In this document: in pieces, positions 21,898 to 54,999 of the stretch | Numbering within the stretch: the first letter of the stretch is position 1 | Layout: the number at the start of each line of letters is the position of its first letter | Notes under the pieces: generated by a model | Seen by the model: only the letters and a program-made list of their open reading frames with translations | Told to the model about the DNA's origin: nothing | Database searches by the model: none | Assembly (NCBI GenBank): GCA_018061645.1 | Contig: JAGOTT010000003.1 | Location: 9,326 to 73,325 of the forward strand | From: Candidatus Moraniibacteriota bacterium | GTDB lineage: Bacteria; Patescibacteriota; Minisyncoccia; Moranbacterales; UBA1568 | Direction: 5' to 3' | Length of the DNA stretch: 64,000 nt | Program-made: the position numbers and the translations under genes

Positions 21898-21926
21898 CCG
21901 GGGAGCCGCGCTCCTCGGATTTTTTC
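21898..21926 (+). terminator. Rho-independent terminator after X2
   Basis: CCGGGGAGC-cgc-GCTCCTCGG followed by ATTTTTTCG. Confidence 0.6.
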
Positions 21927-21927
21927 G

Positions 21928-22005
21928 TTTACCCAGTCGGACTGGATTTTTTACGATCGCGGTGGGAGAATGTCGGTGGGTCTAAACATGATTTTTCGCA
22001 TATGA
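21928..22005 (+). promoter_or_regulatory. Conserved leader element L1: TTTACCCAGT-hairpin-GGTGGGAGAATG with an 11-codon uORF whose stop overlaps the downstream ATG
   Basis: gtTTACCCAGTCggACTGGatttt...cgcGGTGGGAGAATGtcggtgggtctaaacatgatttttcgcatATGAtc. uORF MSVGLNMIFRI* (21970-22005) overlaps ATG 22002 as ATGA. Confidence 0.45.
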
Positions 22006-22535: not shown

Positions 22536-22585
22536 AAGTGATCCGCGCTTCTTTTGTTATTCCGAGCGAAACCGAGGAATCCGGA

Positions 22586-22610
22586 AACCCGCTTTACACG
22601 CGGGTTTTTT
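22586..22610 (+). terminator. Rho-independent terminator (part of a repeated about 65-bp module, copy 1)
   Basis: AACCCGC-tttacac-GCGGGTT followed by TTTTAG. Module 22548-22612 recurs at 24100-24163. Confidence 0.6.
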
Positions 22611-22612
22611 AG

Positions 22613-22701
22613 TTTACCCAGTTGACTTGCATTCAGTCGACAGGGGTGGGAGAATGGACGGGCTGAAGTCCTTTCCCGAACCGCATACCAGGAGGGCATG
22701 A
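22613..22701 (+). promoter_or_regulatory. Conserved leader element L2 with a 15-codon uORF overlapping the start of the 22698 gene
   Basis: gTTTACCCAGTtgacttgcattcagtcgacaggGGTGGGAGAATGgacggg...ggagggcATGATGgac. uORF MDGLKSFPEPHTRRA* (22654-22701) ends with the ATGA overlap. Confidence 0.45.
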
Positions 22702-23084: not shown

Positions 23085-23212
23085 GCGGTCTATATCCGAT
23101 CCCGCGTATCTCACAATGCGCGGGATTTTCATTGTATCCTGTCGGACTTGCTCGTTCGATTGTGGTTTGCCGTGTCGGGCCGGCATTTGCCAACTTTTTT
23201 CTATCTTTGGAA

Positions 23213-23248
23213 TGTATCATAATCCTACGGCCGTGGAATTATGATACA
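23213..23248. repeat. 36-bp palindromic element TGTATCATAAT-cctACGGCCGTgg-AATTATGATACA, copy A
   Basis: 11-bp perfect inverted arms around an ACGGCCGT core. Identical copy at 23962-23997. Confidence 0.7.
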
Positions 23249-23288
23249 ATTGTCGGGTGGCGATATATGCGGTTTTTCATCGACGCGT

Positions 23289-23960
23289 ATGTATAAGTTC
23301 GGACCAGTGCAGCAGAAAGTGCTCCTCGTGCTTGCCGGCGGCGCGGCGCTCAGCCTTTCGAATTCGTCGGTGCAGTATTATCGGACGCTCCGGAAACTGC
23401 GGCGCGAGTGGATGGATATCGATCAGCGGAATTTCAGTCGTTCCGTCCGGAGGCTTGCGCAGCAGAAGCTGCTCGAGGAACGGGTCATGCCCGACGGATC
23501 CTTCAAGCTCGTGCTCACGGCGGAAGGGAAGCGTCAGGCGAAGCGTCTCGACCTTTTCGGACAGTCGATACGCTTCCGAAAGCCGAAGCGGTGGGACAAG
23601 CGATGGCGCGTGGTGATGTTCGATATTCCGGAGAAGAGCCGGACCTTTCGGGATATCCTGCGGGAACATCTGCGGGAGATGCGGTTCTATCGGCTCCAGC
23701 AGAGCGTATTCGTGTCCCCGTATCCGTTCGAGAAGCCGCTCCAGGAACTGGTTGATCTCTATGGCGCGGATCCGTATGTGCGGATCATGACGGTGGGATG
23801 GATCGACAATGAGAAATTCCTCAAACGGCATTTTTTCCGTCCGCGGAAAACGGGAGGCGACAAGAACGGGAAAGGGGAATTGAAAACGAAAGTGAAAGAG
23901 GGGGAGAGGGAAAAAGAGAAGGAGAAGGAGAGAGAAAGCGCGAAACCTACGGAAAAGTAA
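23289..23960 (+). CDS. Winged-helix regulator-like protein with a Cas2/VapD-fold-like (PaaX-C-like) C-terminal region and a Lys/Glu-rich tail
   Basis: The C-terminal segment RWRVVMFDIPEKSRTFRDILREHLREMRFYRLQQSVFVSP resembles the Cas2/PaaX beta-alpha pattern. N-terminal HTH-like region. ATG 23289 (track ORF starts inside the palindrome at 23241). Confidence 0.5.
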   Translation: MYKFGPVQQKVLLVLAGGAALSLSNSSVQYYRTLRKLRREWMDIDQRNFSRSVRRLAQQKLLEERVMPDGSFKLVLTAEGKRQAKRLDLFGQSIRFRKPKRWDKRWRVVMFDIPEKSRTFRDILREHLREMRFYRLQQSVFVSPYPFEKPLQELVDLYGADPYVRIMTVGWIDNEKFLKRHFFRPRKTGGDKNGKGELKTKVKEGEREKEKEKERESAKPTEK

Positions 23961-23961
23961 A

Positions 23962-23997
23962 TGTATCATAATCCTACGGCCGTGGAATTATGATACA
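23962..23997. repeat. 36-bp palindromic element, copy B, immediately after the stop codon of the 23289 gene
   Basis: Identical to 23213-23248. Confidence 0.7.
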
Positions 23998-24136
23998 TTT
24001 TGTATTAGGGATGTGGGGAGGATGGGGATAGGGAGGGGGACGAGGGTGAGAGGAAGGGAGGGAGGATTTGAGATACGGGATTGGAGGAAAGAGCAGGCCT
24101 TCTTTTGTCATTCTGAACTCCGCGCAGGAATCCGGA

Positions 24137-24161
24137 AACCCGCTTTACACGCGGGTTTTTT
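24137..24161 (+). terminator. Rho-independent terminator (repeated module copy 2), at the left edge of the low-GC island
   Basis: AACCCGC-tttacac-GCGGGTT followed by TTTTTAG, then GTGGGAGAAT. Confidence 0.55.
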
Positions 24162-24186
24162 AGTGGGAGAATAGATATGTAATTAA

Positions 24187-24206
24187 TTACGTAATTCGGT
24201 ACGTAA
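24187..24206. promoter_or_regulatory. TTACGTAAT-tcg-GTACGTAA dyad motif 9 bp upstream of the AbrB-like gene
   Basis: aTTACGTAATtcgGTACGTAAtttcaatcgtATG. Confidence 0.45.
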
Positions 24207-24216
24207 TTTCAATCGT

Positions 24217-24393
24217 ATGGCAAATAAAGCGAAAGACGAAAAGGATGTCAGAAAACTTACCAAGGTCGGGGGAAAATCGATCAGCGTAACCCTGCCGATC
24301 GACATTGTCCGGGAACTGGGGTGGAAAGAGAAGCAGAAGGTCGTCGTGAAGCGTGTCCACGGAGGGGTGATGATCAAGGATTGGAAGAAATAA
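24217..24393 (+). CDS. AbrB/MazE/SpoVT-family DNA-binding protein (58 aa)
   Basis: MANKAKDEKDVRKLTKVGGKSISVTLPIDIVRELGWKEKQKVVVKRVHGGVMIKDWKK shows the swapped-hairpin pattern (K..GGS.SVTLP....LG...G..V). Below the 60-aa cutoff, so absent from the ORF track. Confidence 0.55.
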   Translation: MANKAKDEKDVRKLTKVGGKSISVTLPIDIVRELGWKEKQKVVVKRVHGGVMIKDWKK

Positions 24394-24396
24394 TTA

Positions 24397-24728
24397 TGGC
24401 AACAGCTTGGTTTGAAAAATTTATTGTTCTTTTGGAGAAACTTATACTTTATCCTCCGTACCTTGTATTTCTTTTTGTTGGTGCCCCGATATTGATGATT
24501 TCTCTCATAATGAAGAACTGGACCGAGCCAATCGGGATATTTTTCTTGTATAGTGCTGCTGGTGGGGTATGGCGGTATATTGAGAAAGATTTGGACCATG
24601 GAATTGGAAGTGTTCTTAAAGAAGAGAAAAGTAAAAATATTGCTCATCTTGTAGTTATCTCTGTGTACCATATCGGGAATGTCGGTTTATTTTTGATGCT
24701 ACTGCACTATCTCAACAAAGCCTTATGA
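24397..24728 (+). CDS. Small membrane protein (3 TM), low-GC
   Basis: MATAWFEKFIVLLEKLILYPPYLVFLFVGAPILMISL... Start overlaps upstream and downstream genes, so operonic with mod. Confidence 0.5.
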
Positions 24729-26872
24729 TTCTTTCTGAAAACGAAAAGCGAGACATTATTAAATTTCTGGAAGCTGGGAAACCGCTTCCGGAGAAATATC
24801 GTTTTTTGCTTTTCAAAGATGATCGTGAAGTGGAGCTTGTGTGGAACGGCAAGACAAATGAGGTGACTAATGTTGTTTTGCCTTTTCAAGTAATTGAGCA
24901 GATCGACGAACCACGAGAGGGGAAGGAGTTTGGTGACGCCCGAGGGACGCTCTTTGATATGAGTGGCAAGCAAATTTCAGGCTGGACCAACAAGCTTATC
25001 TGGGGAGACAACAAACTTATTCTCTCGTCTCTCAAAAATGGTCCGATGCGAAAAGAGATTGAGGCACAGGGTGGTCTCAAGCTCATCTATATCGATCCTC
25101 CCTTTGATGTCGGTGCTGATTTTTCTATGGATATAGAAATTGGTGAAGGTGGTGATACTGAGAGCTTTACGAAGAAGCCTTCGGTTATTGAAGAAATTGC
25201 CTATCGCGATACTTGGGGTAAGGGTGCAGATAGCTTCATCGCAATGATTTATGAGCGTCTCAAATTGATGCACGAACTTCTTGCTGAAGATGGAAGCATT
25301 TACGTTCACTGTGATTGGAGATTATCTGGTCACATAAGATTGGTTCTTGATGAGGTATTTGGAAAAGATAATTTCAGAAATGAGATTATCTGGAAGTACA
25401 GTGGAGGTGCAAGTTCTAGCCGGTTTTTTGCTCGAAAACATGACACTGTGTTTTTTTATTCCAAATCAGATAAATACAACTTTAATCAACAGTTTGAAGA
25501 TTTTGCAGAAACAACAATCGCTAGGTTTAATAAGGTTGATGAAAACGGTAGACGGTACAAAGAAAACAGAATGGCTGATGGCAGAGTTTACAATACCTAC
25601 ATGAACGAGGAGGGTAAGCCAGCTACGGATGTATTTGAGTTCAACATTGTGGTTTCAAGTCATGATGAAGCAGTAAAGTACCCGACTCAAAAACCAGAAG
25701 CATTTTTGGAGAGGATAGTAAAAGCATCTTCAAACGAAGGTGATCTGATAGCAGATTTTTTTATTGGTTCAGGTACAACCTTGGCTGTTGCTGAAAAACT
25801 TGGTCGCAAGTGGATCGGTACTGATCTCGGGAAATTTGGTATTCATACTTCGCGTAAGAGGATGATTGGTGTACAGCGTGAACTCAAAAAGGCCGGAAAG
25901 GACTTTCGCGCGTTTGAGATTTTGAACGTTGGTAAATACGAACGTGAGAGCTTCCTCAGTATCAATAGCGACTTGCGCTCAGAAGAAAAAGAAAAACAAG
26001 CACAACGAAAAGAAAAAGAGTTTATCAAGCTCATTCTTTCTGCGTACAAAGCTGAATCCGTGGAAAGTTTTGCAAATATCGTCGGCAAGAAACGGGACCG
26101 TCTTGTAGCGGTTGGTCCTATCAACATGCCTGTATCTCAGAAATTTATCCAAGAAATAGTCGATGAATCAAAAAAGAAGGGCTTCACTAAAGTTGATGTG
26201 CTGGGCTTTGATTATGAGATGGGACTTGTATTTGATGATTTTGTGACGCAAGGTTTGGATATTGCGTTTAAGATTATTCCTCGTGAAGTGTTTGACAAGC
26301 GCGCTGTCGAGCGTGGTCACGTGAACTTTTATGACGTTGCCTACATCGACATAAAGTCGATAGTGACTGGCCGCGGAAATACGAAGGAACTTTCCATTGA
26401 GCTCACTGATTTCTCCGTGTTTTACAATCAAGATTCTTCTGCGACAGAAGAATTGAAAGCCGGAAAATCAAAGGTTGTCGTTCAAAGCGGCCAGGTTATC
26501 AAGATTTCAAAAGATAAAGATGGAAATGAATTGCCGCCCGAAGTTCTCACCAAAAAATGGAGCGACTGGATTGATTATTGGGCAGTTGATTATAATTTTG
26601 CGGATCGAAAAGAAATTATCCGTGTGCCAAAGACGCAAGGGGATAATTTATTTGAGAGAGGAAAGGAACAAAGTCTGCTCGATTACGAAGAGGTTTGGAC
26701 AGGAGACTATATCTTTGATAACGAATGGCAAGCCTTCCGTACCAAGAAGAATCGAAATCTTGAACTGGTTTCTGCTCCAAAAGAACTTCCAAAGGGCGAT
26801 TATAAAGTTGCTGTAAAAGTTGTAGATATTTTTGGGAATGATACTACTAGAGTAATCGATGTGAAAATATGA
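24725..26872 (+). CDS. mod: Type III restriction-modification system methyltransferase (Mod, beta-class N6-adenine/N4-cytosine MTase)
   Basis: Motif IV IYIDPPFD precedes motif I DFFIGSGTT (circularly permuted beta class). Size 715 aa. Adjacent Res helicase-nuclease. Confidence 0.85.
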   Translation: MILSENEKRDIIKFLEAGKPLPEKYRFLLFKDDREVELVWNGKTNEVTNVVLPFQVIEQIDEPREGKEFGDARGTLFDMSGKQISGWTNKLIWGDNKLILSSLKNGPMRKEIEAQGGLKLIYIDPPFDVGADFSMDIEIGEGGDTESFTKKPSVIEEIAYRDTWGKGADSFIAMIYERLKLMHELLAEDGSIYVHCDWRLSGHIRLVLDEVFGKDNFRNEIIWKYSGGASSSRFFARKHDTVFFYSKSDKYNFNQQFEDFAETTIARFNKVDENGRRYKENRMADGRVYNTYMNEEGKPATDVFEFNIVVSSHDEAVKYPTQKPEAFLERIVKASSNEGDLIADFFIGSGTTLAVAEKLGRKWIGTDLGKFGIHTSRKRMIGVQRELKKAGKDFRAFEILNVGKYERESFLSINSDLRSEEKEKQAQRKEKEFIKLILSAYKAESVESFANIVGKKRDRLVAVGPINMPVSQKFIQEIVDESKKKGFTKVDVLGFDYEMGLVFDDFVTQGLDIAFKIIPREVFDKRAVERGHVNFYDVAYIDIKSIVTGRGNTKELSIELTDFSVFYNQDSSATEELKAGKSKVVVQSGQVIKISKDKDGNELPPEVLTKKWSDWIDYWAVDYNFADRKEIIRVPKTQGDNLFERGKEQSLLDYEEVWTGDYIFDNEWQAFRTKKNRNLELVSAPKELPKGDYKVAVKVVDIFGNDTTRVIDVKI

Positions 26873-27414
26873 GCAAAAAAATCGCAAAGAAAAAATTTCA
26901 GCCCTTTGTGCATGACAATCTCGACATAAAAAACGAGCTTCTTCAGCTTGCAAGAAAAGCGAGAGAATCGAAGAGCATTGAGAATGATCTTGCTTCAGTC
27001 CTCATCTATTCGAACATAGCAGAATATTTGGCAGAGCACTTGCTTGATACATTGAGCCATCTTGTTTATAAGAGCTCTTATAATAGTTTTGGAGGGATTT
27101 TGTTTGTCGAGTCTGTGTCACGATCGGGGAAGAAGACACTTAATCAAACAGTGGAAGAGCTTGAGAAATTCAATTTTCCTGATAAGGACGGAATCGTCCA
27201 CTGTTTCAGAAAAATAGCAGATTCTCGGAACAGAATATTTCACAACTTTGCGAAGAGTGATATCAATTCAATAAAGGATCTGCTTGAGAAAGATTTGCCA
27301 GTTATTCAGGAAGAATGTGAAGAAATTATCAACAAAGTGAATACGGTTTATGCTGGTTTGCAAAAGATTTTAGGACAGCAGGAGAATGGCAATGAGAGCC
27401 AGGATGAGAAATAA
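26869..27414 (+). CDS. Hypothetical 181-aa protein embedded between mod and res
   Basis: Translationally coupled (ATGA overlap with mod). No recognised motifs. Confidence 0.55.
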   Translation: MSKKIAKKKFQPFVHDNLDIKNELLQLARKARESKSIENDLASVLIYSNIAEYLAEHLLDTLSHLVYKSSYNSFGGILFVESVSRSGKKTLNQTVEELEKFNFPDKDGIVHCFRKIADSRNRIFHNFAKSDINSIKDLLEKDLPVIQEECEEIINKVNTVYAGLQKILGQQENGNESQDEK

Positions 27415-28245
27415 ATGGGTTCAAGAGAAATTATGAAAAGAATCCGCATCTATTCAGATGAAAGCCGACACAAGAACGAGCGGTTTTTATTGCTTGGAGG
27501 ACTTTGGATTGAGGAAGAAAAAGTGAGGATTGTGGAGGAGCTTATCGGACAGCTGCGAAAGGAGAGTGGGTACACGAGGGATGATGGACAAAGGATTGCT
27601 TTCCTTGGCGAATTCAAATGGAAGAAAGTATCGGATAAGTATATTGCCGTCTATAAGCAGCTTGTCGATATTTTCTTTGATTGTATCGAAAAGGATGCTT
27701 TCCGGTTTTGTGTCATGCTTGTCGATACGCATAATCCGGTTGTTGTGGAGCAGAGCAATATAAAGAAAGAAGGATACTTCAAACTGCTCTACCAGCTCTA
27801 TCTTCACAATTCAAAAATCCCAGCACTCTATCGGATCCACCCTGACAGCATCACAAATCCAGCTCAAGACAAAGTCGATTTTTCGACTCTCGATAAATGC
27901 CTGGATCGGGCATTTCTTAAGAAGTTCTCTCCGCTCGTAAACCCGGCGGATCTCCCTAATGGTAAGGGATTCGTGGAAGAGATCGTTTCGGTGAATTCGA
28001 AAAGTTCCGAATTCATCCAACTTGTGGATGTGGTAATGGGCGGTATCGGATATTTTCAGAATCGTCTTTTTACGAATCCGGATGCGAAGAAGGCGAAGAT
28101 CGAACTTATGAAGTACATTTTTGACAAGCTTATCTATTCCGGGACGATCCAAACAACAGGAAAACGATATATTGTGGCGCGGTCGACAAAATTCAATATC
28201 TGGGTATTTCGACCAAAAAATAAAAAAGACCCTCAAGCTTGTTGA
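27415..28245 (+). CDS. DUF3800-family protein
   Basis: N-terminal IRIYSDESRH (DUF3800 I.IDESG-like motif). Starts 1 nt after the upstream stop. Confidence 0.65.
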   Translation: MGSREIMKRIRIYSDESRHKNERFLLLGGLWIEEEKVRIVEELIGQLRKESGYTRDDGQRIAFLGEFKWKKVSDKYIAVYKQLVDIFFDCIEKDAFRFCVMLVDTHNPVVVEQSNIKKEGYFKLLYQLYLHNSKIPALYRIHPDSITNPAQDKVDFSTLDKCLDRAFLKKFSPLVNPADLPNGKGFVEEIVSVNSKSSEFIQLVDVVMGGIGYFQNRLFTNPDAKKAKIELMKYIFDKLIYSGTIQTTGKRYIVARSTKFNIWVFRPKNKKDPQAC

Positions 28246-28271
28246 GAGTCGCTTTTATGGAGTCCTGAGTG

Positions 28272-28318
28272 CTGGGTCAGTGCCCGGTGTGACATCAGTC
28301 ACAGGAGACGTCACCCAG
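28272..28318. other. GC-rich nested hairpin inside an AT-rich intergenic region (possible terminator or structured element)
   Basis: CTGGGT...TGTGAC-atca-GTCACA...ACCCAG. Confidence 0.3.
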
Positions 28319-28517
28319 TAACTCCACATCTATTATTGCACAGAAGTTGACAAAATACAACAGTTAGCAGTAGAAATAGCTAGAAAATTCTTGAAATAAG
28401 GCTTATAAAAAGCAAATAAATAATTTACAAGGTTAGTTAAATCTTTTATTACTAGCACAAAAATAAATAACTAGACTAATCGCGCGTAAAAGCAATTAAA
28501 CTCATTTTTATTTACCT

Positions 28518-31205
28518 ATGGCTCTCCATAAAGACTTTCCAAAAGATCCATACGCAATTCTCAATCCTGAAATCAGGTGGTTTCCGGCACCTGAAGACCT
28601 GCGAGAAAAGGGGTTTGAGAAGCTTATCCCTCCGCTTGTCGCAGAACTGCGCAAACAAGTGAAGATGTGGCGTGATAATAACTACGATGGAGCAGGTGAG
28701 ACTTCAAAGGCGCTTTTGACATGGTGGTTTAAAGAAGAACACACACTCTATAACAATGATGGTTCTTCGTATAATTTTCGGTACTATTTTTCTCAAAGAG
28801 AGGCACTCGAGACGGTAGTATGGCTCTATGAGGTTGCTCAAGTGAAAGATAAGTACGATTTGATACGATACAATTCCACTGGCGTTCTGAGCCCACAGAT
28901 GTTCACCGAGGATTGGCTTCGATTTGTGATCAAGATGGCTACTGGGGCTGGCAAGACCAAGGTGATGAGCCTGATCATAGCGTGGGCATATTTTCATAAA
29001 CTTTACGAGGAAGGTTCGGGATTAGCTAAAAATTTTCTTCTTATTGCTCCGAACGTTATTGTATTCGAACGTATTAAGAATGATTTTGAAGGAAACAGAA
29101 TATTTTTCCAAGACCCAATATTGCCCGACAACGGCTATATGGGTCAAAACTGGCAGGATGATTTCCAAATTACCCTACACCTTCAAGATGAGCTAAAGAA
29201 TGTCTCTGATACCGGAAATATATTTCTGACGAATATTCACCGGGTATTTGAAAGTGATGTACAGGAATATAGTGTAGACGATGAAGATAGCTCCGAGTAT
29301 TTTCTTGGTGATAAGCCAGTTGCCAAAACCAATGAAGGCACGATTGATTTGGGAATGGTAGTTCGAGATATTGATGAGCTTATTATTATAAACGATGAGG
29401 CACATCATATTCACGAAGAAAATGCGTGGCTCAAATCTATCCGCGACATCGATAACAAGCTGAAACAAAAAGGAGGCGGTCTCGCACTGCAGCTTGATGT
29501 GACTGCAACGCCAAAAAATAATAAGGGCGCGATTTTTGTGCAGACAATTTCTGATTATCCTTTGGTCGAGGCTATTCATCAAAGAGTGGTCAAGCAGCCC
29601 GTGGTGCCAGATGAAGCTAGTCGGGGGAAGCTCGAAGAGGGTCAAAGCGTTGTATTTACTGAAAGATGGAGGGATCATATCAATCTCGGTGTTGAGGAAT
29701 GGAGAAAAATATATAAGCAACTTGAGCCGACTGGAAAGAAATCACTTCTTTTCATAATGACCGATGATACAAAAAATTGTGATGATGTTGCGGAGTATCT
29801 TGAAATGAGTTATCCGGAACTGAAGGATGCTGTTTTGACTATTCATACCAATAAGAGCGGTGAAATCTCCGAAAGCACTACTGGTAGAAATAAAGAAGAG
29901 CTTGAACAACTTCGAAAACAATCAAACGAGATCGATAGCTGGGAAAGTCCGTACAAGGCAATCGTATCGGTCATGATGCTCAAAGAAGGGTGGGATGTGA
30001 AAAATGTGACCACAATTGTTGGTCTTCGTCCTTTTGCTTCTGATAGTAAAATCCTTCCAGAGCAGACATTAGGGAGAGGTTTGCGAAGAATGTACTTCGG
30101 GAGAGATGATATCGATGAATACGTGAGCGTTATTGGTACCCCGGCTTTCATGGACTTTGTCGAGAGTATCAAAGGTGAAGGCGTTGTTCTTGAAAAGCGG
30201 TTGATGGGCGCTGGATCAAAACCAATTTCGCCAATGGTAATTGAGGTTGATAAGGAAAATACCAAGAAAGATATCGAAAAACTAGATATCGAGATTCCTG
30301 TGATGACAGCTCGAATACAGCGAGAGTACAAGAATCTTGTTGATTTAGACGTGTCTAGCTTTGGCAACAGAAAGGTAAAAGTGAAGACGTTTTCCGAAGA
30401 GGAAAAACGAGAGATAGTCTTTAAGGATGTTGTTGTTGAAGAAGTGCATCACACAACTATTTTGAGTGGCGATATTGAGCCGAACTATCAGAGTGTCGTT
30501 GGTTTTTTTGCGCAAGCTATAATGCGCGAAATGCGTTTGTTTGGTTGTTACGATATTCTTTTCGGTAAAGTAAAGGACTTTATTGAGAATAATATGTTTG
30601 AAAGTAAGGTTGAGTTGACTGATCTTAATGTACTTAGAAATCTATCTGAAGTTGAGTACATCAAGCTTATTAAAGACGCCTTTAAGAAAGCTATCAACGA
30701 GCTAACGGTTCAAGATCGAGGGGATACTGAAATTAAAAATTATATTAAAGTTAGTGATGCGAGGCCGTTTGTGGTGAATGATAAGTCATTTCTTGTGCCA
30801 CAAAAATCAGTGTTCAATAAAATTGTCGGTGATAGTAATTTTGAGCTTGAGTTTTCTGCTTTTCTTGAGAAATGTGATGATGTTGTATCATTTGCTAAAA
30901 ACTTTCAAAACAAGGAAGCCAATGCTTTGCGTATTGAGTATAAGAATAGTGAAGGGTTTATCGCCACCTATTATCCAGATTTCTTTGTGAAAGTAAATGA
31001 GAAGAATGTTTATATTGTTGAGACAAAGGGCCGTGAAGAAGAGGATGATAAAATAAAGTTTGAAAGATTAGAGAAGTGGTGTGAAGATGTAAATAATAGG
31101 CAAACAAAGGTTATCTACGGAGCGTTGTATATACAGCAGGAGGACTATGAAAAAAATCCTGCCAATAATTTTAATGAGCTTTTAAGGCTGTTCGGACGAG
31201 TATAA
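28518..31205 (+). CDS. res: Type III restriction enzyme Res subunit (SF2 helicase plus C-terminal PD-(D/E)xK endonuclease)
   Basis: Walker A MATGAGKTKVM, motif II DEAHH, later helicase motifs. C-terminal nuclease-like YIVETKG. 895 aa. Confidence 0.85.
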   Translation: MALHKDFPKDPYAILNPEIRWFPAPEDLREKGFEKLIPPLVAELRKQVKMWRDNNYDGAGETSKALLTWWFKEEHTLYNNDGSSYNFRYYFSQREALETVVWLYEVAQVKDKYDLIRYNSTGVLSPQMFTEDWLRFVIKMATGAGKTKVMSLIIAWAYFHKLYEEGSGLAKNFLLIAPNVIVFERIKNDFEGNRIFFQDPILPDNGYMGQNWQDDFQITLHLQDELKNVSDTGNIFLTNIHRVFESDVQEYSVDDEDSSEYFLGDKPVAKTNEGTIDLGMVVRDIDELIIINDEAHHIHEENAWLKSIRDIDNKLKQKGGGLALQLDVTATPKNNKGAIFVQTISDYPLVEAIHQRVVKQPVVPDEASRGKLEEGQSVVFTERWRDHINLGVEEWRKIYKQLEPTGKKSLLFIMTDDTKNCDDVAEYLEMSYPELKDAVLTIHTNKSGEISESTTGRNKEELEQLRKQSNEIDSWESPYKAIVSVMMLKEGWDVKNVTTIVGLRPFASDSKILPEQTLGRGLRRMYFGRDDIDEYVSVIGTPAFMDFVESIKGEGVVLEKRLMGAGSKPISPMVIEVDKENTKKDIEKLDIEIPVMTARIQREYKNLVDLDVSSFGNRKVKVKTFSEEEKREIVFKDVVVEEVHHTTILSGDIEPNYQSVVGFFAQAIMREMRLFGCYDILFGKVKDFIENNMFESKVELTDLNVLRNLSEVEYIKLIKDAFKKAINELTVQDRGDTEIKNYIKVSDARPFVVNDKSFLVPQKSVFNKIVGDSNFELEFSAFLEKCDDVVSFAKNFQNKEANALRIEYKNSEGFIATYYPDFFVKVNEKNVYIVETKGREEEDDKIKFERLEKWCEDVNNRQTKVIYGALYIQQEDYEKNPANNFNELLRLFGRV

Positions 31206-31265
31206 AAGTGGCCAGGAACCTTTTTATGAAATGAGGTCGATTCGTTTCGCTCAAAGATACGCACT

Positions 31266-32024
31266 ATGTCCGAATACTACAACCCGAGACGGACGCGGAA
31301 CATCTTTGATCCGGCATCGTCCGAACCGTTCAAGATCAGTCGCTCCAAGCTGGATCTGTTCCTGAATTGTCCCCGTTGCTTCTACCTGGACCGGAGATCG
31401 GGAGTGGGGCGTCCTCCGGGGTTTCCTTTCAGTCTGAACTCCGCCGTGGACGCTTTGCTCAAGAAGGAATTCGATATCCACCGCGCCGCTGGAACCGCGC
31501 ATCCACTGATGGAGCGGTACGGCATCGATGCGGTGCCGTTTCGCCACGAGAAGATGGAGGAGTGGCGTGACTCCCTGAGACGGGGAATCCAGTATCTACA
31601 CGAGGAGACCGGATTGCTCCTGACCGGTGGTGTCGACGATGTCTGGGTGAACCCGGGGGGCGAGCTCATGATCGTCGACTACAAGGCGACCTCGAAGAGC
31701 GGCGAGGTGAGTCTCGATGCCGATTGGCAGATCGGATACAAGCGGCAGATGGAAATCTATCAGTGGCTTTTCCGGAAGAACGGATTCGCCGTCTCCAGGA
31801 CCGGATACTTCGTGTACTGCAACGGGGATGCGGACAAGGAAGCGTTCGATGGAAAGCTTGAGTTCGATGTGAGGGTCATTCCGTATGTCGGCGATGATGG
31901 CTGGATAGAAGGGGCGTTGTCCGACGCGAAAGCATGCCTGATGAGCCCGACGATTCCACGGTCAGCCGAAGACTGCGATTATTGCCGATATGTCGCCGCG
32001 GTGCGTGAGGTGAGCGGGGAGTGA
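31266..32024 (+). CDS. Cas4/RecB-like PD-(D/E)xK nuclease family protein (DUF83-like) with putative Fe-S Cys cluster
   Basis: N-terminal CPRCFY, catalytic IVDYK, QMEIYQW (QhxxY), C-terminal CLMSP...CDYCRY. Confidence 0.65.
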   Translation: MSEYYNPRRTRNIFDPASSEPFKISRSKLDLFLNCPRCFYLDRRSGVGRPPGFPFSLNSAVDALLKKEFDIHRAAGTAHPLMERYGIDAVPFRHEKMEEWRDSLRRGIQYLHEETGLLLTGGVDDVWVNPGGELMIVDYKATSKSGEVSLDADWQIGYKRQMEIYQWLFRKNGFAVSRTGYFVYCNGDADKEAFDGKLEFDVRVIPYVGDDGWIEGALSDAKACLMSPTIPRSAEDCDYCRYVAAVREVSGE

Positions 32025-48205: not shown

Positions 48206-49306
48206 CTACAATCGAATATAATGGCTTCCTCCGATGTCCTTCGCGAGTCCGCGGAGTTCGAGCATCGTGAGCGTGCCGGAAACGGCGCCTGTTCCAAGAT
48301 GCGATGATTTGATGATTTCGTCAACCGCCAGTCCCTCGTGAGAGAGAATGGAAAGGATTTTTTCCTCCTCTTCGGAAAGACCTTGATGTGTTTCTTTCGC
48401 TCCTTCCGTTGCGGTCTTTGCCGGTTCCGCCACGACCGGAATCTCCTCGAGGATGTCGCCGATGTTTCGGACGATCTTCGCGCCTTCCTTGATGAGCCGG
48501 TTCGTTCCGGAGGATGCGGGAGAGAAGATGGGACCGGGAACGGCGAACACTTCGCGGTTCGCTTCGAGCGCGAGCTGCGCGGTGATGAGTGACCCGCTCC
48601 GCTCCGCCGCCTCGATGACGATGGTTCCCTGCGAGATACCGGCGACGATCCGGTTCCGCGCGGGGAACGTTTCCGGCCGTGCGGGTGTCACGGGCGGGTA
48701 TTCGGAAAGGAGCGCGCCCTGTTCCTGTATCCGACGTGCGAGCGGGAGGTGATCTTTGGGGTGGATGGAAGCGTCGTCGAGACTGTCGCCCAAGACGGCG
48801 ATCGTCGTGCCTCCGGAGTGGATTGTCGCTTCGTGGGCGACGGAATCGATGCCGTAGGCGAGCCCGGACACGACGACGAATCCGGCGCGCGTCAGTTCCA
48901 TCGCAATCCGTTCTGTCGCCTGCGTGCCGTAGGCGGTGTGGCGGCGCGAGCCGACGACCGATATGCAGGGCTTGTGCCACTGCGAAAAATTCCCTTTCGC
49001 GTAGAGGAGCGCGAAGGGTGCGTCGAGTTCGCGGAGAAGCGGCGGAAAGTCCGGACCGTTCCCGAGGAGGACCCTGATATTTTCCTGTTCGAGAAGTCTG
49101 GCTTCGTATTCCGGGTCGATGGAGGAGCGACCATCCACGAGAGTTTCGCGCGCGTCCTTGGAGAGGTTCGCATCGGTGAATGCGGACAGAGGCGCTTTCC
49201 ATGCCGCTTCGCCCGATTCGAAACAATCCATGACGGAGAGGATCCGCGCCTGTCCGAATCCGGGAAGTTTCCGGAAGCAGTGCCAATAGATGGAATCGGG
49301 AATCAT
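48206..49306 (-). CDS. dprA: DNA processing protein A (DprA/Smf)
   Basis: VVGSRRHTAYG...VVSGLAYGIDSVAH...AVLG Rossmann-like DprA core. Start set at MIPDSIYW (track extends to 49366). Coordinates plus or minus 2. Confidence 0.85.
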   Translation of the reverse strand: MIPDSIYWHCFRKLPGFGQARILSVMDCFESGEAAWKAPLSAFTDANLSKDARETLVDGRSSIDPEYEARLLEQENIRVLLGNGPDFPPLLRELDAPFALLYAKGNFSQWHKPCISVVGSRRHTAYGTQATERIAMELTRAGFVVVSGLAYGIDSVAHEATIHSGGTTIAVLGDSLDDASIHPKDHLPLARRIQEQGALLSEYPPVTPARPETFPARNRIVAGISQGTIVIEAAERSGSLITAQLALEANREVFAVPGPIFSPASSGTNRLIKEGAKIVRNIGDILEEIPVVAEPAKTATEGAKETHQGLSEEEEKILSILSHEGLAVDEIIKSSHLGTGAVSGTLTMLELRGLAKDIGGSHYIRL

Positions 49307-49476
49307 GGGAGGAATATGATGGATGATATAAGATGCATGATACACGATAATAATATACGATGTCATTCTGATCCTGTCTTGGCGGAAGAAGAATCCCGTC
49401 CGGAAGCAATGGACAAAATAACGCGTTTTCGCTAGAATTGTTGTTAACTGTTATTTGTTCTTTGTTATCTGATTTC

Positions 49477-49549
49477 GGGCCGTTAGCTCAGTTGGTAGAG
49501 CACCGCGTTTGCAACGCGGGGGTCGCAGGTTCGAATCCTGTACGGTCCA
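49477..49549 (+). tRNA. tRNA-Ala (anticodon TGC)
   Basis: GGGCCGTTAGCTCAGTTGGTAGAGCACCGCGTTTGCAACGCGGGGGTCGCAGGTTCGAATCCTGTACGGTCCA. Cloverleaf present, G3:U70 Ala identity pair, anticodon loop TTTGCAA. CCA not encoded. Confidence 0.85.
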
Positions 49550-49556
49550 CCGAGAG

Positions 49557-49587
49557 AAAAAACGCCTTGAATAGGCGTTTTTCGTTT
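49557..49587 (+). terminator. Hairpin terminator after tRNA-Ala
   Basis: AACGCCT-tgaat-AGGCGTT followed by TTTTCGTTTT. Confidence 0.5.
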
Positions 49588-49646
49588 TACTGAACTGTGA
49601 TACAATTTTACAGATAGATATGAGTTAACCTTTACACGAGTACCGT

Positions 49647-52600: not shown

Positions 52601-52748
52601 GACCATTGAGAAACGGTTCGTGCAATCCGTGCACGTCTCATTTTCCGATGACAAATTGCAGGAGGTTTTTCCGGAATTGCCAACGCTCTATATTTGGCCG
52701 TATCAGAGAGGGAAGGTCGACGCACTTCCGTGGTTCGACTATAAGTAG
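49647..52748 (+). CDS. Tri-domain fusion: AsnB-type glutamine amidotransferase (Ntn-Cys plus PP-loop synthetase) fused to a periplasmic-binding-protein-like (NMT1/SsuA-like) domain and an unknown C-terminal domain
   Basis: MCGISAI (Cys2 nucleophile), SGGVDSS PP-loop and asparagine-synthetase-like core over about 500 aa. Residues about 520-780 resemble PBP type-2 SBP (PLYFPVYLAEKLGLFSKRNLDVSF...). The last about 250 aa are unknown. Region GC about 49%. Confidence 0.75.
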   Translation: MCGISAIISKAGDRENILKQSLSKIIHRGSSNFEYRIFDDAAMGTNRLPIVGRSSGQQPVANEDETVFAVLNGEIFNYKEIRTSLIGKGHVFRGESDTEVLVHLYEEYGESMVDHLDSEMYAFVVFDTKTKDFYAARDRFGVKPLFYAIDARDGSYHFASELKQLVQFDFVQEVFDFPAGHFMKNGDLKRYYEIQTSDEVVVKQDAVRMLTDLVVDAVRKRVDTDLPVAVLLSGGVDSSLVMEIANRLHPDVTGYILGRPGSPDYEAAMRLCADYKYKFKVVYPDVDYAEEIEQILYHLELYEAQVIRQSFSLDILSRAIVRDGYRIALVGDASDEIFGGYNEFVRLASGDINKGCELITKSLARSHNVRLDRLSMKHTLEVRAPFFDTKVVNYAMTIGGSLKVNRDEEHNVTTKYILRSVAAKFLPDYIANRYKVPFSNGAGMNVGFNFRTQDGDVAKEVLASSFGELTIPDEEKKRIGFVTHEEEVYYAMYKNFSYDKLVDHQKRIVTKETLSQIDTDKGTTRIVAAEFDRMPLYFPVYLAEKLGLFSKRNLDVSFMSTGGDDLTYNSLFSGSAQIGISDPVFSFSNAFATKGKIFGSLVNHVPVGAVSINPSIAIASKDDFKKYRVGSYQEFSTVNTLARTYLPDVEIKPFSHKDIVNALKRRDIDIAFVSLDFAYVLEGVGGKILLSLTDEFGPYLFTGLTVSDNLDPSFAPAIDMFKAAVKEGMVFLGNFPEESRILFESLFPDVSDAESFLFSMKQYWHKKLDDIGDGEIDHAEAAWRAVHPSLLDATHPSFVAQTKAGKVIAALAKRNVSREIPYREDAMAALIRKSLDVDMPLSLMSFWGASDKEGLTESDHVLLRRVQEIQNALKEQGVSSTMTFVLSDEHGALNGYAREKYETYLGRIDEEMKKMGFDTVRLSNLWKEAGLTMEKVVAYADAIDQEKWSALRVSPFLEKSAAKRRHEDALVAARRYYAARKLENTTIEKRFVQSVHVSFSDDKLQEVFPELPTLYIWPYQRGKVDALPWFDYK

Positions 52749-52809
52749 CTTCGTCCGTGATTTCATAATCAGTCCGGGCAATTGAGGGATGTCCGAAAAA
52801 TGAAAAGTT

Positions 52810-54747: not shown

Positions 54748-54999
54748 CCATCCCGAGTGACTGCGACTCCAGAAATTCTTTGGTAAGTTCTAATTGTAGG
54801 ATGGAGTTTGCATCGTCGCATCTTGCGTGGTCGCGGAGGGAGTGGTATGCTTCCCTCTGTTTTGTGGGACAACCGAATCGTCGATGAGATGAGATTTTTT
54901 TCGGTGCTCGCCCTTGCTTCGCAAAATCTTCTTGGAGGTATAAATTATTAGCTTTCGGAGCCGGGCTTTCTCAGAGCCTGTTCAATATCTCATGTCGAG

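What the first reader, a model, noticed from the sequence alone, without database searches (positions are those of the whole stretch)
24165..31250. 7-kb low-GC island: Type III R-M system split by an unknown gene and a DUF3800 gene, led by an AbrB/MazE-like gene and a small membrane protein
Composition drops to roughly 38-40% GC between the repeated terminator (24161) and about 31250, which implies horizontal acquisition. Mod (24725-26872) and Res (28518-31205) are normally adjacent. Here two translationally coupled genes (181-aa unknown, 276-aa DUF3800) and a 270-bp AT-rich promoter region sit between them. DUF3800 proteins recur in defence islands without assigned function. The arrangement may be a composite defence locus (R-M plus an embedded accessory effector) with an AbrB-like controller.
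Basis: partly seen in the sequence, partly recalled or inferred. Interest (0 to 1): 0.65.

Follow-up and report, generated by a model that had tools for sequence, protein, structure and literature searches.

The report
Restriction island hiding a nuclease–small-RNA pair
A horizontally acquired Type III restriction-modification operon carries two nested accessory modules between its two genes, a HEPN RNase and an RNase-H-like DUF3800 nuclease paired with a previously undescribed, convergently transcribed structured small RNA; this pairing recurs inside restriction systems in many uncultured bacteria and looks like a toxin/RNA-antitoxin back-up defence.

Summary
Window 24165-31250 is 40.2% GC against 56.6% elsewhere, 7 sd below same-size windows. 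It encodes AbrB/MazE-like, small membrane protein, Type III Mod, a 181-aa protein, DUF3800 and Type III Res. The 181-aa "unknown" is a HEPN RNase (invariant RNxxxH) of a family that sits inside Type I and Type III R-M operons elsewhere. It holds a ~105-nt structured small RNA on the minus strand (core 28328-28258), with its own sigma-70 promoter and an intrinsic terminator that overlaps the DUF3800 stop codon. This RNA matches no Rfam family. It followed DUF3800 in all 22 distinct subfamily loci found through the protein, shows strong covariation, and moves with DUF3800 as a 930-bp cassette. Of 36 assessable loci, 29 lie in or beside R-M genes (Type III, Type I, Type ISP-like). RNA-only and DUF3800-deleted loci exist, but protein-only loci were not seen. 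My best reading is an RNase-HII-like toxin held by a dedicated RNA antitoxin, acting as second-line defence nested in R-M. The mechanism is inferred, not shown. I rate it a new variant of a known kind (DUF3800-associated RNAs; R-M-nested nucleases).

The parts
24099..24164 (+). Host-side 66-nt repeated terminator-like element; marks the left edge of the island
   Evidence: Second copy at 22548-22613 (86% identity). Pattern GGAAACCCGC-N7-GCGGGTTTT has 2 matches against 0 expected. GC drops right after it.
24217..24393 (+). AbrB/MazE (SpoVT-AbrB fold) 58-aa DNA-binding protein; putative regulator or antitoxin-like leader gene
   Evidence: Pfam MazE_antitoxin 1.1e-7. Always paired with the membrane gene in L101-L104. 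46% identical copy directly upstream of DUF3800 in L009.
24396..24728 (+). 110-aa small multi-pass membrane protein, second gene of the AbrB+membrane leader pair
   Evidence: No family hit. 9 homologues. 82% nt-identical pair precedes a different Type III mod-res in L101/L102, and an unknown 498-aa gene in L103/L104.
24725..26872 (+). Type III R-M methyltransferase (Mod), beta-class N6/N4 MTase
   Evidence: PF01555 1.4e-49; PADLOC MTase_III 2.6e-115. DPPF (124) precedes FIGSG (346). 53-61% identical orthologues in mod-DUF3800-res loci.
26869..27414 (+). 181-aa HEPN-domain protein (predicted RNase), of an R-M-nested family
   Evidence: Pfam HepT-like 4.2e-5, just above cutoff. Invariant R120-N121-x3-H125 in 34 homologues. 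All-alpha AF2 model, pLDDT 84. Best natural Foldseek hits are HepT/HEPN toxins, but weak (E ~0.1). Homologues sit between hsdS and hsdR (L094, L096) and between mod and res (L097).
27433..28245 (+). DUF3800 protein (270 aa), RNase HII-like fold nuclease with an intact acidic active site
   Evidence: PF12686 1.6e-10; PADLOC PDC-M04A 1e-33. AF2 pLDDT 86.9; Foldseek best hits are archaeal RNase HII 1eke/1io2, E 1.7e-5. Invariant D9, E10, D98, D138, Q196, D199 in 56 sequences.
28218..28328 (-). New structured small RNA (~105-110 nt): 71-nt conserved core 28328-28258 (P1, P2, P3 and P4 helices) plus intrinsic terminator (stem 28250-28228, U-tract to ~28218) that overlaps the last ~28 nt of the DUF3800 CDS
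   Evidence: CM R1 gives 93.9 bits, E 6e-22, the only hit in 64 kb. Covariation: 95.8% of cells paired, 47 double-change cells against 13 in shuffles, 0/500; minus-strand consensus. Terminator. MFE -44.8 kcal/mol, z -4.8. No Rfam match on either strand at E<=10.
28332..28360 (-). Promoter of the small RNA: -10 AATAAT (28337-28332), 17-nt spacer, -35 TTGTAT (28360-28355); TSS about 28325-28327
   Evidence: Read from the sequence. The same layout (TTGAcw-17-TAtaaT, 6-7 nt, GGAGUU) is found in 33/53 related loci on this strand and 0/53 on the other. The 930-bp block shared with L006 ends at 28360.
28361..28517 (+). AT-rich (26% GC) leader, probably the promoter region of res
   Evidence: Composition. 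No strong consensus promoter was found by the scan. Function inferred from position only.
28518..31205 (+). Type III R-M restriction subunit (Res): SF2 helicase plus C-terminal PD-(D/E)xK nuclease
   Evidence: ResIII 2.7e-18; RE_endonuc/TnsA-like C-terminus; NCBIfam BPTD_3080 family 2.9e-81 (below the equivalog cutoff). Motifs GAGKT143, DEAH293, QTLGRGLR516, PD820...ETK.
31266..32024 (+). PD-(D/E)XK (Cas4-like) nuclease gene just outside the low-GC block; possible associate, not part of the island by composition
   Evidence: PF12705 5.7e-14. GC 0.58, GC3 0.73, like the host. A 73% identical homologue also lies downstream of res, three genes away, in L007/L051.

Best explanation
The island is a horizontally acquired, modular Type III restriction-modification operon. 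Its order is AbrB-like gene, small membrane protein, mod, [HEPN], [DUF3800 + sRNA], res. Two independent 'second-line' modules sit in the slot between the methyltransferase and the restriction subunit.

Module 1 is a HEPN RNase of an R-M-nested family. The logic would be PrrC-like: latent while the R-M complex is intact.

Module 2 is a 930-bp cassette. It holds an RNase-HII-like DUF3800 nuclease and a convergent ~105-nt structured small RNA with its own promoter and terminator. I propose the pair works like a toxin-antitoxin / abortive-infection module:
- The constitutively made, presumably short-lived RNA binds and silences DUF3800. It may also act through its ~28-nt antisense overlap with the 3' end of the DUF3800 mRNA.
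- When host transcription collapses or the RNA is destroyed during infection, or the locus is lost, the nuclease is freed and attacks nucleic acid, most plausibly RNA in RNA:DNA hybrids. This stops the infected cell or penalises loss of the R-M operon.

Shown: the gene content, the RNA's existence as a conserved structured element, its strand signals, its 1:1 linkage with DUF3800, and the R-M association.
Inferred: transcription of the RNA, RNA-protein binding, toxicity, the trigger, and the defence role.
For: Composition and modularity:
- GC 0.402 vs 0.566.
- The AbrB+membrane pair is shared at 82% nt with L101, where the mod/res are only 33%/26% identical.
- The DUF3800+sRNA block is shared at 81% nt with L006, exactly over 27432-28360.

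Type III identity.

HEPN:
- RNxxxH is invariant.
- Homologues are nested in Type I and Type III R-M.
- This matches the 16 clades of R-M-linked HEPN and the PrrC model in PMC3710099.

DUF3800:
- RNase HII-like fold.
- Invariant acidic residues.
- The literature gives it an RNase H2-like fold, names it the effector of type VII retrons, and lists it as an accessory in Cas12a2/a3 and Cas13 loci.
- In retrons the nucleic acid (msDNA) is the antitoxin for the effector.

sRNA:
- 57 distinct sequences, with covariation in four helices.
- On the minus strand, a promoter in 33/53 loci and a terminator in 40/53; on the plus strand, 0/53 for both.
- Wobble asymmetry favours the minus strand.
- One CM hit per locus, and none in distant DUF3800 or HEPN loci.
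- Positive control: Rfam DUF3800-VIII lies downstream of and convergent to its DUF3800 gene in L024/L026, the same layout.

Asymmetry expected of a toxin/antitoxin pair:
- All 22 distinct subfamily loci found through the protein carry the RNA.
- About 12 of 49 RNA loci (roughly a quarter) have DUF3800 absent, truncated or disrupted.
- This includes a clean ~740-nt deletion of DUF3800 with the RNA kept (L062 vs L077), and a viral contig with the RNA plus a 26-aa remnant (L029).

R-M association: 29 of 36 assessable distinct loci.
Against: - There is no expression, binding, toxicity or phage data.
- The RNA is single-copy, downstream and convergent, unlike the tandem-repeat upstream antitoxins of Type III TA systems.
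- The toxin is a 270-aa enzyme, unlike Type I TA peptides.
- No conserved base-pairing exists between the sRNA and the DUF3800 translation-initiation region (mean z 0.15 over 34 loci).
- Five loci lack the terminator hairpin (L002, L005, L013, L018, L040).
- The protein-only versus RNA-only asymmetry could also arise if the protein is useless without its RNA (the cofactor model). It also rests on two differently ascertained samples, and metagenome frameshifts may inflate 'disrupted' counts.
- Some cassettes sit beside housekeeping genes (L001, L021) or a serine recombinase (L008, L011), so a purely selfish or mobile role is possible.
- In the Cas13-CASK study, the DUF3800 protein Csx32 had no assigned role.
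- The Foldseek TM-scores to RNase HII are modest (0.39-0.45).
Confidence: 0.45

Rival explanations
1. Obligate ribonucleoprotein effector. The small RNA is a structural cofactor, scaffold or guide that DUF3800 needs to be active, as in RNA-dependent nucleases. The RNP, not the free protein, is the defence or processing enzyme, and the RNA does not inhibit it.
For: - Linkage is strict 1:1, and the RNA core is more conserved than the protein (about 90% nt against 55-65% aa).
- Unpaired segments are invariant, which suggests specific protein contacts.
- No protein-only loci were seen.
- Eleven other unrelated RNA structures accompany DUF3800 genes (PMC5737381).
Against: - An invariant RNA cannot guide to variable targets.
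- Intact RNA genes persist, with promoter and terminator, after clean loss of DUF3800. That is unexpected for a cofactor with no other role.
- The convergent, terminator-sharing layout is typical of antisense or antitoxin pairs.
Confidence: 0.25
2. Selfish addiction or mobile cassette. DUF3800+sRNA is a small mobile toxin-antitoxin-like element that inserts next to methyltransferase genes and other sites and merely stabilises itself. It confers no phage defence and has no functional coupling to the R-M enzymes.
For: - It moves as a 930-bp unit between unrelated contexts.
- It occurs beside housekeeping genes (L001, L021) and beside large serine recombinases (L008, L011, L049, L061).
- In L009 it is bracketed by a ~90-nt direct repeat of the AbrB gene's 3' end.
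- A DnaA box next to the sRNA promoter in 17/54 loci hints at replication-linked control.
Against: - 29/36 assessable loci are in or beside R-M genes of at least three types, usually abutting the methyltransferase stop codon and in the same orientation. This is more than random insertion would give.
- Mod, DUF3800 and Res show similar divergence across loci (53-67%), which suggests long co-inheritance.
- The cassette has no transposase or inverted ends.
Confidence: 0.15
3. R-M expression controller. The convergent sRNA gene and its bidirectional terminator insulate res from mod transcription. The sRNA pairs with read-through mod-DUF3800 transcripts and, with the RNase-H-like DUF3800, tunes or delays Res production relative to Mod.
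For: - It sits exactly between the mod-side genes and res.
- The hairpin is a strong terminator on the minus strand and a weaker one on the plus strand.
- res has its own AT-rich leader.
- Any read-through transcript would be perfectly complementary to the sRNA.
Against: - The cassette also occurs with no res downstream: after hsdM or hsdS in L012, L014, L019 and L078, and beside housekeeping genes in L001 and L021.
- The highly conserved structured core is unnecessary for simple antisense or insulation roles.
- Related Type III operons manage without it (L101).
Confidence: 0.1
4. Assembly artefact. The low-GC block is a chimeric join of DNA from a low-GC organism into a high-GC MAG contig, so the 'island' is not real in any genome.
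For: - The record is a metagenome-assembled genome.
- The left junction abuts a repeated 66-nt element.
- All close relatives of the island's genes come from low-GC candidate-phyla bacteria.
Against: - Both junctions lie inside one 84.9-kb contig with host-like sequence on both sides.
- The repeat's other copy is 1.5 kb upstream on the same contig, not in the island.
- Neither the architecture of the island nor the sRNA finding depends on the host, because both recur in about 60 independent loci.
Confidence: 0.03

Closest known systems
DUF3800-associated RNA motifs DUF3800-I to -XI (Weinberg et al. 2017, PMC5737381; Rfam e.g. RF02969, RF02968, RF03075)
   Same: A conserved, covarying structured RNA lies next to a DUF3800 gene and is often followed by a Rho-independent terminator. 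Its function is unknown. In my control loci, DUF3800-VIII lies downstream of and convergent to the gene, the same layout as here.
   Different: There is no similarity to any Rfam model on either strand at E<=10. The fold differs: a P1/P2 stem carrying two hairpins. It belongs to a compact DUF3800 clade, mostly from candidate-phyla bacteria. In the papers I could search, nesting in R-M operons, the promoter/terminator anatomy, the DnaA box and the RNA-only loci were not described for those motifs.
PrrC / R-M-linked HEPN nucleases (Anantharaman et al. 2013, PMC3710099)
   Same: A latent RNase gene is nested inside an R-M operon. Homologues of the 181-aa HEPN sit between hsdS and hsdR, exactly as prrC does. 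The proposed logic is a back-up suicide or dormancy arm when restriction fails.
   Different: The HEPN here is a 181-aa single domain without the ABC-ATPase of PrrC/RloC, and it sits in a Type III operon. The second nested nuclease is RNase-H-like and comes with an RNA partner, which that scheme does not include.
Retron type VII (RT + msr/msd + DUF3800 effector; Mestre et al. 2020, PMC7736814) and the retron tripartite toxin/antitoxin concept (Bobonis et al., bioRxiv 10.1101/2020.06.22.160168)
   Same: A DUF3800 RNase-H2-like effector is genetically coupled to a dedicated structured non-coding nucleic acid. In retrons, that nucleic acid neutralises the effector.
   Different: No reverse transcriptase is present in the island or in related loci. 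The RNA is a short terminated sRNA, not an msr-msd template. This clade keeps the QxxD motif that the retron-linked DUF3800 proteins lack.
Type I (3'-overlapping antisense, e.g. B. subtilis txpA/RatA, bsrG/SR4) and Type III (ToxIN) toxin-antitoxin systems (from general knowledge)
   Same: An RNA gene is tightly linked to a potentially harmful protein gene. The transcription is convergent with 3' overlap, as in RatA/SR4. The idea of an RNA that binds a nuclease toxin matches ToxI-ToxN.
   Different: The protein is a 270-aa RNase-H-fold enzyme, not a membrane peptide. The RNA is single-copy and downstream, not a tandem-repeat array upstream. Its conserved core lies outside the overlap.
PADLOC candidate system PDC-M04 (component A)
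   Same: DUF3800 matches PDC-M04A at 1e-33.
   Different: No island protein matched a PDC-M04 'B' component among the hits listed (the Mod hit list was truncated at the best 25). No paper in the library describes PDC-M04.

Membership tests
Type III restriction-modification system | Mod: beta-class N6/N4 adenine/cytosine MTase (motif IV DPPY/F before motif I FxGxG, with the TRD between them) | tested here: met
   PF01555 1.4e-49; PADLOC MTase_III 2.6e-115; DPPF at 124, FIGSG at 346
Type III restriction-modification system | Res: SF2 helicase motifs plus a C-terminal PD-(D/E)xK endonuclease | tested here: met
   ResIII 2.7e-18; GAGKT143, DEAH293, QTLGRGLR516; PD820-x-ETK; weak RE_endonuc/TnsA-like hits. 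NCBIfam BPTD_3080 at 273.8 bits is below the 800-bit equivalog cutoff, so it is related to that equivalog group but not a member.
Type III restriction-modification system | mod upstream of res on the same strand in one locus | tested here: met
   Same strand, mod first; but separated by 1.65 kb holding HEPN, DUF3800 and the sRNA. The adjacent form is seen in L101.
Type III restriction-modification system | ATP-dependent cleavage needing two inversely oriented unmethylated sites; hemimethylation by Mod | not testable with these tools
   Needs enzymology or methylome data
HEPN superfamily (R-M-linked clade) | Rx4-6H catalytic motif | tested here: met
   R120-N-R-I-F-H125; R120, N121 and H125 are invariant in 34 homologues
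HEPN superfamily (R-M-linked clade) | All-alpha four-helix HEPN fold | tested here: inconclusive
   The AF2 model is all-helical, pLDDT 84.4. The best natural Foldseek hits are HepT/HEPN proteins (7bxo, 6m6u, 1wwp, 1ylm), but E is only 0.1-0.15. Pfam HepT-like scores 23.7 bits against a cutoff of 23.5.
HEPN superfamily (R-M-linked clade) | Conserved neighbourhood inside R-M operons | tested here: met
   hsdS-HEPN-hsdR in L094 and L096; mod-HEPN-res in L097; mod-HEPN in L098
DUF3800 (PF12686), RNase H-like | Profile match above the curated cutoff; N-terminal DE motif; C-terminal QxxD motif | tested here: met
   42.3 bits against a cutoff of 21. SDES at 8-11 and QLVD at 196-199, invariant in 56 sequences.
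DUF3800 (PF12686), RNase H-like | RNase H (type 2-like) fold | tested here: met
   AF2 pLDDT 86.9 / pTM 0.86. Foldseek best hits are RNase HII 1eke, 2dff and 1io2 at E 1.7e-5 to 1e-4, prob 1.0, TM 0.35-0.47.
DUF3800 (PF12686), RNase H-like | Nuclease activity and substrate | not testable with these tools
   No member has been characterised biochemically in the papers found
Rfam DUF3800-I...XI RNA families | Match to one of the curated covariance models | tested here: not met
   No DUF3800-* hit on either strand at E<=10 in 23500-32000 or in 28180-28540. The library does detect DUF3800-VIII in control loci.
DUF3800-associated RNAs as a class (Weinberg 2017) | Conserved structured RNA with covariation, consistently adjacent to DUF3800 genes | tested here: met
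   All 22 distinct subfamily loci found through the protein carry it. Covariation score 0.175 against 0.075 in shuffles (0/500); pair 16-57 shows GC19/CG10/UA4/AU2.
Type III toxin-antitoxin (ToxIN-like) | Antitoxin RNA as tandem direct repeats upstream of the toxin gene, separated by a terminator; toxin is an endoRNase that processes the repeats | tested here: not met
   The RNA is single-copy (one CM hit per locus), downstream and on the opposite strand
Type I toxin-antitoxin | Antisense RNA overlapping the toxin mRNA; toxin is a small hydrophobic peptide | tested here: not met
   A ~28-nt 3' overlap is present in most loci, but the protein is a 270-aa soluble enzyme and no TIR pairing was found
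Retron type VII | Reverse transcriptase plus msr/msd ncRNA next to DUF3800 | tested here: not met
   No RT domain in any island protein
PADLOC PDC-M04 | Both components (A and B) present | tested here: inconclusive
   A matched at 1e-33; no B match was listed for any neighbour (the Mod list was truncated at 25). The composition of the system is not documented in the searchable literature.

The most novel reading that the evidence does not exclude
DUF3800 nucleases and their dedicated small RNAs form a widespread two-component immune or addiction module, with an RNase-HII-like toxin and a structured RNA antitoxin or sensor. Bacteria repeatedly nest this module between the methyltransferase and nuclease genes of Type I and Type III R-M systems as a fail-safe. 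In many lineages the RNA's promoter is wired to DnaA, so the module would read out the cell's replication and transcription state. If true, this would give the first function to the whole orphan class of 'DUF3800 RNA motifs', and to the DUF3800 accessory genes of retrons, Cas12a2/a3 and Cas13 loci.
Probability: 0.25. Interest if true: 0.8.

Novelty: new variant of a known kind. Interest (0 to 1): 0.62.

Why it matters
DUF3800 proteins and their eleven unrelated partner RNAs have been an open puzzle since 2017. DUF3800 genes also accompany retrons, Cas12a2/a3 and Cas13 systems without a known role.

This locus adds a twelfth, very clean RNA partner, with defined promoter, terminator and structure, and a compact 930-bp protein+RNA cassette that could be synthesised and tested directly.

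It also adds three new clues to function:
- a strong association with R-M operons (29/36 assessable loci);
- natural variants that lost the nuclease but kept the RNA;
- a DnaA box at the RNA promoter in a third of loci.

It shows that a Type III R-M system can carry two different nested nucleases (HEPN and RNase-H-like). That extends the PrrC-style 'layered defence inside an R-M operon' idea to candidate-phyla bacteria, whose defence repertoire is poorly known.

Tried and rejected
1. Known RNA family: Rfam cmscan on 8.5 kb and on 361 nt, both strands, E<=10, gave only noise. ARAGORN found no tRNA or tmRNA.
2. Plus-strand RNA (a 3'-UTR element of DUF3800): rejected. 0/53 promoters and 0/53 terminators fit that strand, against 33/53 and 40/53 for the minus strand. 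Wobble pairs favour the minus strand, and its alifold energy is lower.
3. sRNA acting on the DUF3800 ribosome-binding region: RNAduplex on 34 loci against shuffles gave mean z 0.15, so no signal.
4. Phage-borne copies as a general feature: two pattern scans of IMG/VR found a single viral contig, L029 (the pattern was mistyped). PLSDB plasmids gave no match to the sRNA region. Cultured phages carry only distant (25-28%) DUF3800 homologues.
5. A conserved AbrB operator upstream of the leader gene: comparison of the window, L101, L103 and L009 showed nothing convincing.
6. PDC-M04 literature: none found.
8. About 20 of the 64 metagenome pattern matches were chance hits lacking the rest of the motif. 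They were discarded and do not match the CM.
9. HEPN+DUF3800 as a recurrent pair: not seen. Only the window has both.

Full report
**1. The observation**

The window is part of an 84.9-kb contig labelled Candidatus Moranbacteria (the DUF3800, HEPN and membrane proteins are 100% identical to NCBI MAG proteins).
- GC per kb falls from 0.54-0.62 to 0.38-0.44 between 24 and 31 kb.
- The block 24165-31250 is 0.402 GC against 0.566 for the rest. 171 same-size windows elsewhere average 0.569 (sd 0.023, minimum 0.509), and the edges are sharp at the 100-nt scale.
- The 'repeated terminator' is a 66-nt repeat (22548-22613 and 24099-24164) ending in an identical GC hairpin plus T-run.

**2. The genes**

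- Mod (24725-26872) is a Type III-like beta-class methyltransferase: PF01555 1.4e-49, PADLOC MTase_III 2.6e-115, DPPF before FIGSG.
- Res (28518-31205) has helicase motifs I, II and VI and a C-terminal PD...ExK nuclease. It is related to the BPTD_3080 restriction-enzyme family.
- The 58-aa leader protein is SpoVT/AbrB/MazE-like.
- The 110-aa protein is a small membrane protein with no family.
- The 181-aa 'unknown' is a HEPN protein.
  - Evidence for the assignment: a marginal Pfam HepT-like hit; an RNxxxH motif invariant in 34 homologues; an all-helical AF2 model; nearest natural folds are HepT/HEPN toxins, though with weak scores.
  - Its homologues are nested in other R-M operons: hsdM-hsdS-HEPN-hsdR (L094, L096), mod-HEPN-res (L097) and mod-HEPN-Schlafen/HATPase_c_4 (L098).
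  - This is the 'R-M-linked HEPN' situation described by Anantharaman et al. 2013. They propose PrrC-like release of a latent RNase when restriction is neutralised.
- DUF3800 most likely starts at 27433 (270 aa).
  - It has an RNase HII-like predicted fold (pLDDT 86.9; best PDB matches 1eke/1io2, E 1.7e-5).
  - D9, E10, D98, D138, Q196 and D199 are invariant.
  - This agrees with published remarks that DUF3800 is RNase-H2-like.

**3.

Printing the 260 nt after the DUF3800 stop codon in 20 related loci showed a ~70-nt block, conserved nearly base for base: GGAGTCCTGGGnnCTGGGTCAnTGCCC...GACATTAGTC...CCCAGTAACTCC. In the window it occupies 28258-28328, inside the supposed promoter region.
- A pattern scan of metagenomes and viral contigs raised the set to 57 distinct sequences.
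- RNAalifold and explicit pair counts support four helices. 95.8% of cells are paired. There are 47 double-change cells against 13 in column shuffles (0/500). One pair occurs as GC19/CG10/UA4/AU2, and the hairpin pairs as UA19/CG16 and GC31/AU5. Slid controls collapse to ~40% pairing.
- The strand is the minus strand.
  - Upstream of GGAGUUACUGGG on that strand there is a sigma-70 promoter at fixed distance (TTGAcw, 17 nt, often TGn, TAtaaT, 6-7 nt). After the core there is a canonical hairpin plus U-run.
  - A census finds 33/53 promoters and 40/53 terminators on the minus strand, against 0/53 and 0/53 on the plus strand.
  - Wobble pairs also favour the minus strand. One pair is U-G in 34 and U-A in 5 sequences, which would be C·A on the other strand.
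- In the window: -35 TTGTAT (28360-28355), -10 AATAAT (28337-28332), start near 28326, terminator stem 28250-28228, and a U-tract running into the last ~28 nt of the DUF3800 CDS.
- The 113-nt transcript folds at -44.8 kcal/mol, z = -4.8.
- A covariance model built from the minus strand finds this site as the only hit in the 64-kb window (93.9 bits). It gives one hit per related DUF3800 locus. It finds nothing in distant DUF3800 loci, HEPN loci or the chance pattern matches.

**4. Is the RNA known?**

Weinberg et al. 2017 described eleven mutually dissimilar RNA motifs (DUF3800-I to -XI) next to DUF3800 genes, several with terminators and with no known function.
- Rfam 15 holds such families. 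As a control, it detected DUF3800-VIII in L024 and L026, about 240 nt downstream of the DUF3800 gene and on the opposite strand, the same layout as here.
- The present RNA matches none of the 4227 Rfam models on either strand at E<=10 and is not a tRNA or tmRNA.

I therefore treat it as a new family within a known, unexplained class.

**5. Linkage and context**

- The window and L006 share 81% nucleotide identity exactly over 27432-28360. That span is the DUF3800 CDS, the sRNA and its promoter, a 930-bp cassette. Everything around it differs.
- All 22 distinct subfamily loci found through the protein carry the RNA.
- Conversely, about 12 of 49 assessable RNA loci have DUF3800 missing, truncated or frame-disrupted.
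  - L062 is L077 with a clean ~740-nt deletion. It joins codon 6 to the last ~15 codons and leaves the RNA gene intact, with flanks 98% and 90.5% identical.
  - A 48-kb viral contig (L029/L045) keeps the RNA and only a 26-aa remnant of the protein.
- Of 59 distinct RNA loci, 29 have an R-M gene within -3.5/+2.5 kb, 7 with adequate flanks have none, and 23 are too short to judge. The R-M contexts are:
  - mod-DUF3800-RNA-res in at least three Type III lineages: window-like at 53-67% identity; L017 at 35-38%; L007/L013 at ~26%;
  - hsdM- or hsdS-DUF3800-RNA in Type I systems (L012, L014, L019, L078);
  - a Type ISP-like methyltransferase (L006);
  - a ResIII helicase followed by a divergent DUF3800 (L093).
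- The remaining loci lie beside large serine recombinases (L008, L011, L049, L061), beside housekeeping genes (L001, L021), or beside an AbrB-like gene (L009).
- HEPN and DUF3800 co-occur only in the window.

**6. The leader pair and mosaic origin**

- The AbrB+membrane pair recurs as a unit. An 82% nt-identical copy precedes a different Type III system in L101/L102 (Mod 33%, Res 26% identity). There mod and res are adjacent, with no insert. More distant copies precede an unknown 498-aa gene (L103/L104).
- The island is therefore assembled from at least four portable modules: the leader pair, the mod/res pair, HEPN, and the DUF3800-sRNA cassette.
- I could not find a shared operator, so 'controller' remains a hypothesis.

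**7. Mechanism**

Shown:
- the parts list;
- the RNA's conservation, structure and strand signals;
- its strict linkage to DUF3800;
- the R-M association;
- the loss asymmetry.

Inferred: everything about activity.

My preferred model (confidence about 0.45):
- DUF3800 is a harmful RNase-H-like nuclease kept inactive by its dedicated RNA. The RNA would act by binding, possibly helped by the 3' antisense overlap.
- When transcription fails or the RNA is degraded during infection, or when the locus is lost, the nuclease is released.
- This parallels retrons, where a dedicated nucleic acid neutralises the effector and where DUF3800 is itself the type VII effector.
- It also parallels PrrC-type nucleases nested in R-M operons.
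- The HEPN gene would be a second, independent fail-safe of the already described kind.

Main rival (0.25): the RNA is an obligate cofactor of an active RNP. This explains the strict linkage equally well, but explains less well why the RNA survives after clean loss of the protein.

Other rivals:
- a purely selfish mobile cassette (0.15);
- an R-M expression controller (0.10);
- assembly chimerism (0.03).

A direct antisense effect on the DUF3800 ribosome-binding site is not supported.

**8. Novelty and verdict**

- Already known kinds: R-M operons with nested HEPN RNases, and DUF3800 genes with partner RNAs.
- New here, as far as the searchable literature shows (21 papers mention DUF3800, none in this sense):
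  - this RNA family and its gene anatomy;
  - the systematic nesting of DUF3800-RNA cassettes in Type I and Type III R-M loci;
  - the nuclease-loss/RNA-retention variants;
  - the DnaA box at the RNA promoter;
  - a Type III operon carrying both a HEPN and a DUF3800-RNA module.
- The DUF3800 clade is compact (essentially one 50%-identity cluster) but is present in Moran-, Magasanik-, Nomura- and Saccharibacteria, Omnitrophota, Firestonebacteria and others.
- I rate it a new variant of a known kind, interest about 0.6.

Noticed in passing
Related loci L007-L011, L046, L050, L052, L061, L064, L068, L078, L083, L087, L090, L092, L093 (region 25-75 nt beyond the sRNA start); not present in the window: A DnaA box (TTATCCACA, at most 1 mismatch, either orientation) sits immediately upstream of the -35 of the sRNA promoter in 17 of 54 loci. 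About 0.7 would be expected from the background rate in the same loci. This suggests DnaA-dependent control of the RNA.
   Followed up: partly
L009 5195-5281 and 6273-6364: The DUF3800-sRNA cassette is bracketed by a ~90-nt imperfect direct repeat. The left copy is the 3' end of an intact AbrB-like gene (46% identical to the window's) and the right copy is a fragment. This may be a footprint of how the cassette integrates, or of recombination between AbrB-led modules.
   Followed up: partly
L062 versus L077 (same flanking glycosyltransferase genes): L062 has a clean ~740-nt deletion that removes almost all of DUF3800 (codon 6 joined to the last ~15 codons). The sRNA gene and terminator are intact.
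   Followed up: yes
window 23211-23251 and 23960-24000: Two 98%-identical copies of a 41-nt palindromic element (AATGTATCATAATCCTACGGCCGTGGAATTATGATACA) flank the PaaX_M/Cas2-like gene 23241-23960 precisely, just upstream of the island.
   Followed up: no
window 22548-22613, 24099-24164; also 21916-21948, 22601-22633, 23121-23153: Families of short repeated terminator-like or REP-like elements sit between the small genes upstream of the island. The island begins right after one of them.
   Followed up: partly
window 31266-32024; L007 9301-10269; L051: A PD-(D/E)XK (Cas4-like) nuclease gene follows res directly in the window (host-like 58% GC). A homologue lies three genes downstream of an unrelated Type III res in the 33%-GC contig L007 (73% aa identity), where it is fused to an FtsK-gamma/wHTH domain. 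It may be a further associated component.
   Followed up: partly
L008, L011, L049, L061 (about -2500 to -858 relative to the RNA motif, opposite strand): A large serine recombinase (Resolvase + Recombinase + Zn_ribbon_recom) lies divergently next to DUF3800 in Saccharibacteria/Nomurabacteria-type loci. This hints that the cassette rides on an integrative element there.
   Followed up: partly
L030, L042, L053 (downstream of the RNA motif): After the RNA come short frame-shifted fragments of the Res N-terminus, then a Mod C-terminal fragment, then a further res copy. These appear to be rearranged or decaying mod-DUF3800-res loci.
   Followed up: no
L058 (+3029 to +3718 relative to the RNA motif): A locus with this RNA also carries, after a Type I hsdM, a second, unrelated DUF3800 protein (229 aa, Pfam 1.3e-7). 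Two DUF3800 lineages therefore occur in one R-M neighbourhood.
   Followed up: no
window 49000-55000: This is a second stretch of lowered GC (0.47-0.52 against ~0.58), possibly another acquired region.
   Followed up: no
INPHARED phage records: Mannheimia phages incl. PHL101 (e.g. DQ426904 23271-23954), Riemerella phages, Moorella phage MCACPph1: Distant DUF3800 homologues (25-28% identity) are encoded by cultured phages, mostly annotated as hypothetical. This fits DUF3800 being phage- or prophage-borne accessory cargo.
   Followed up: no
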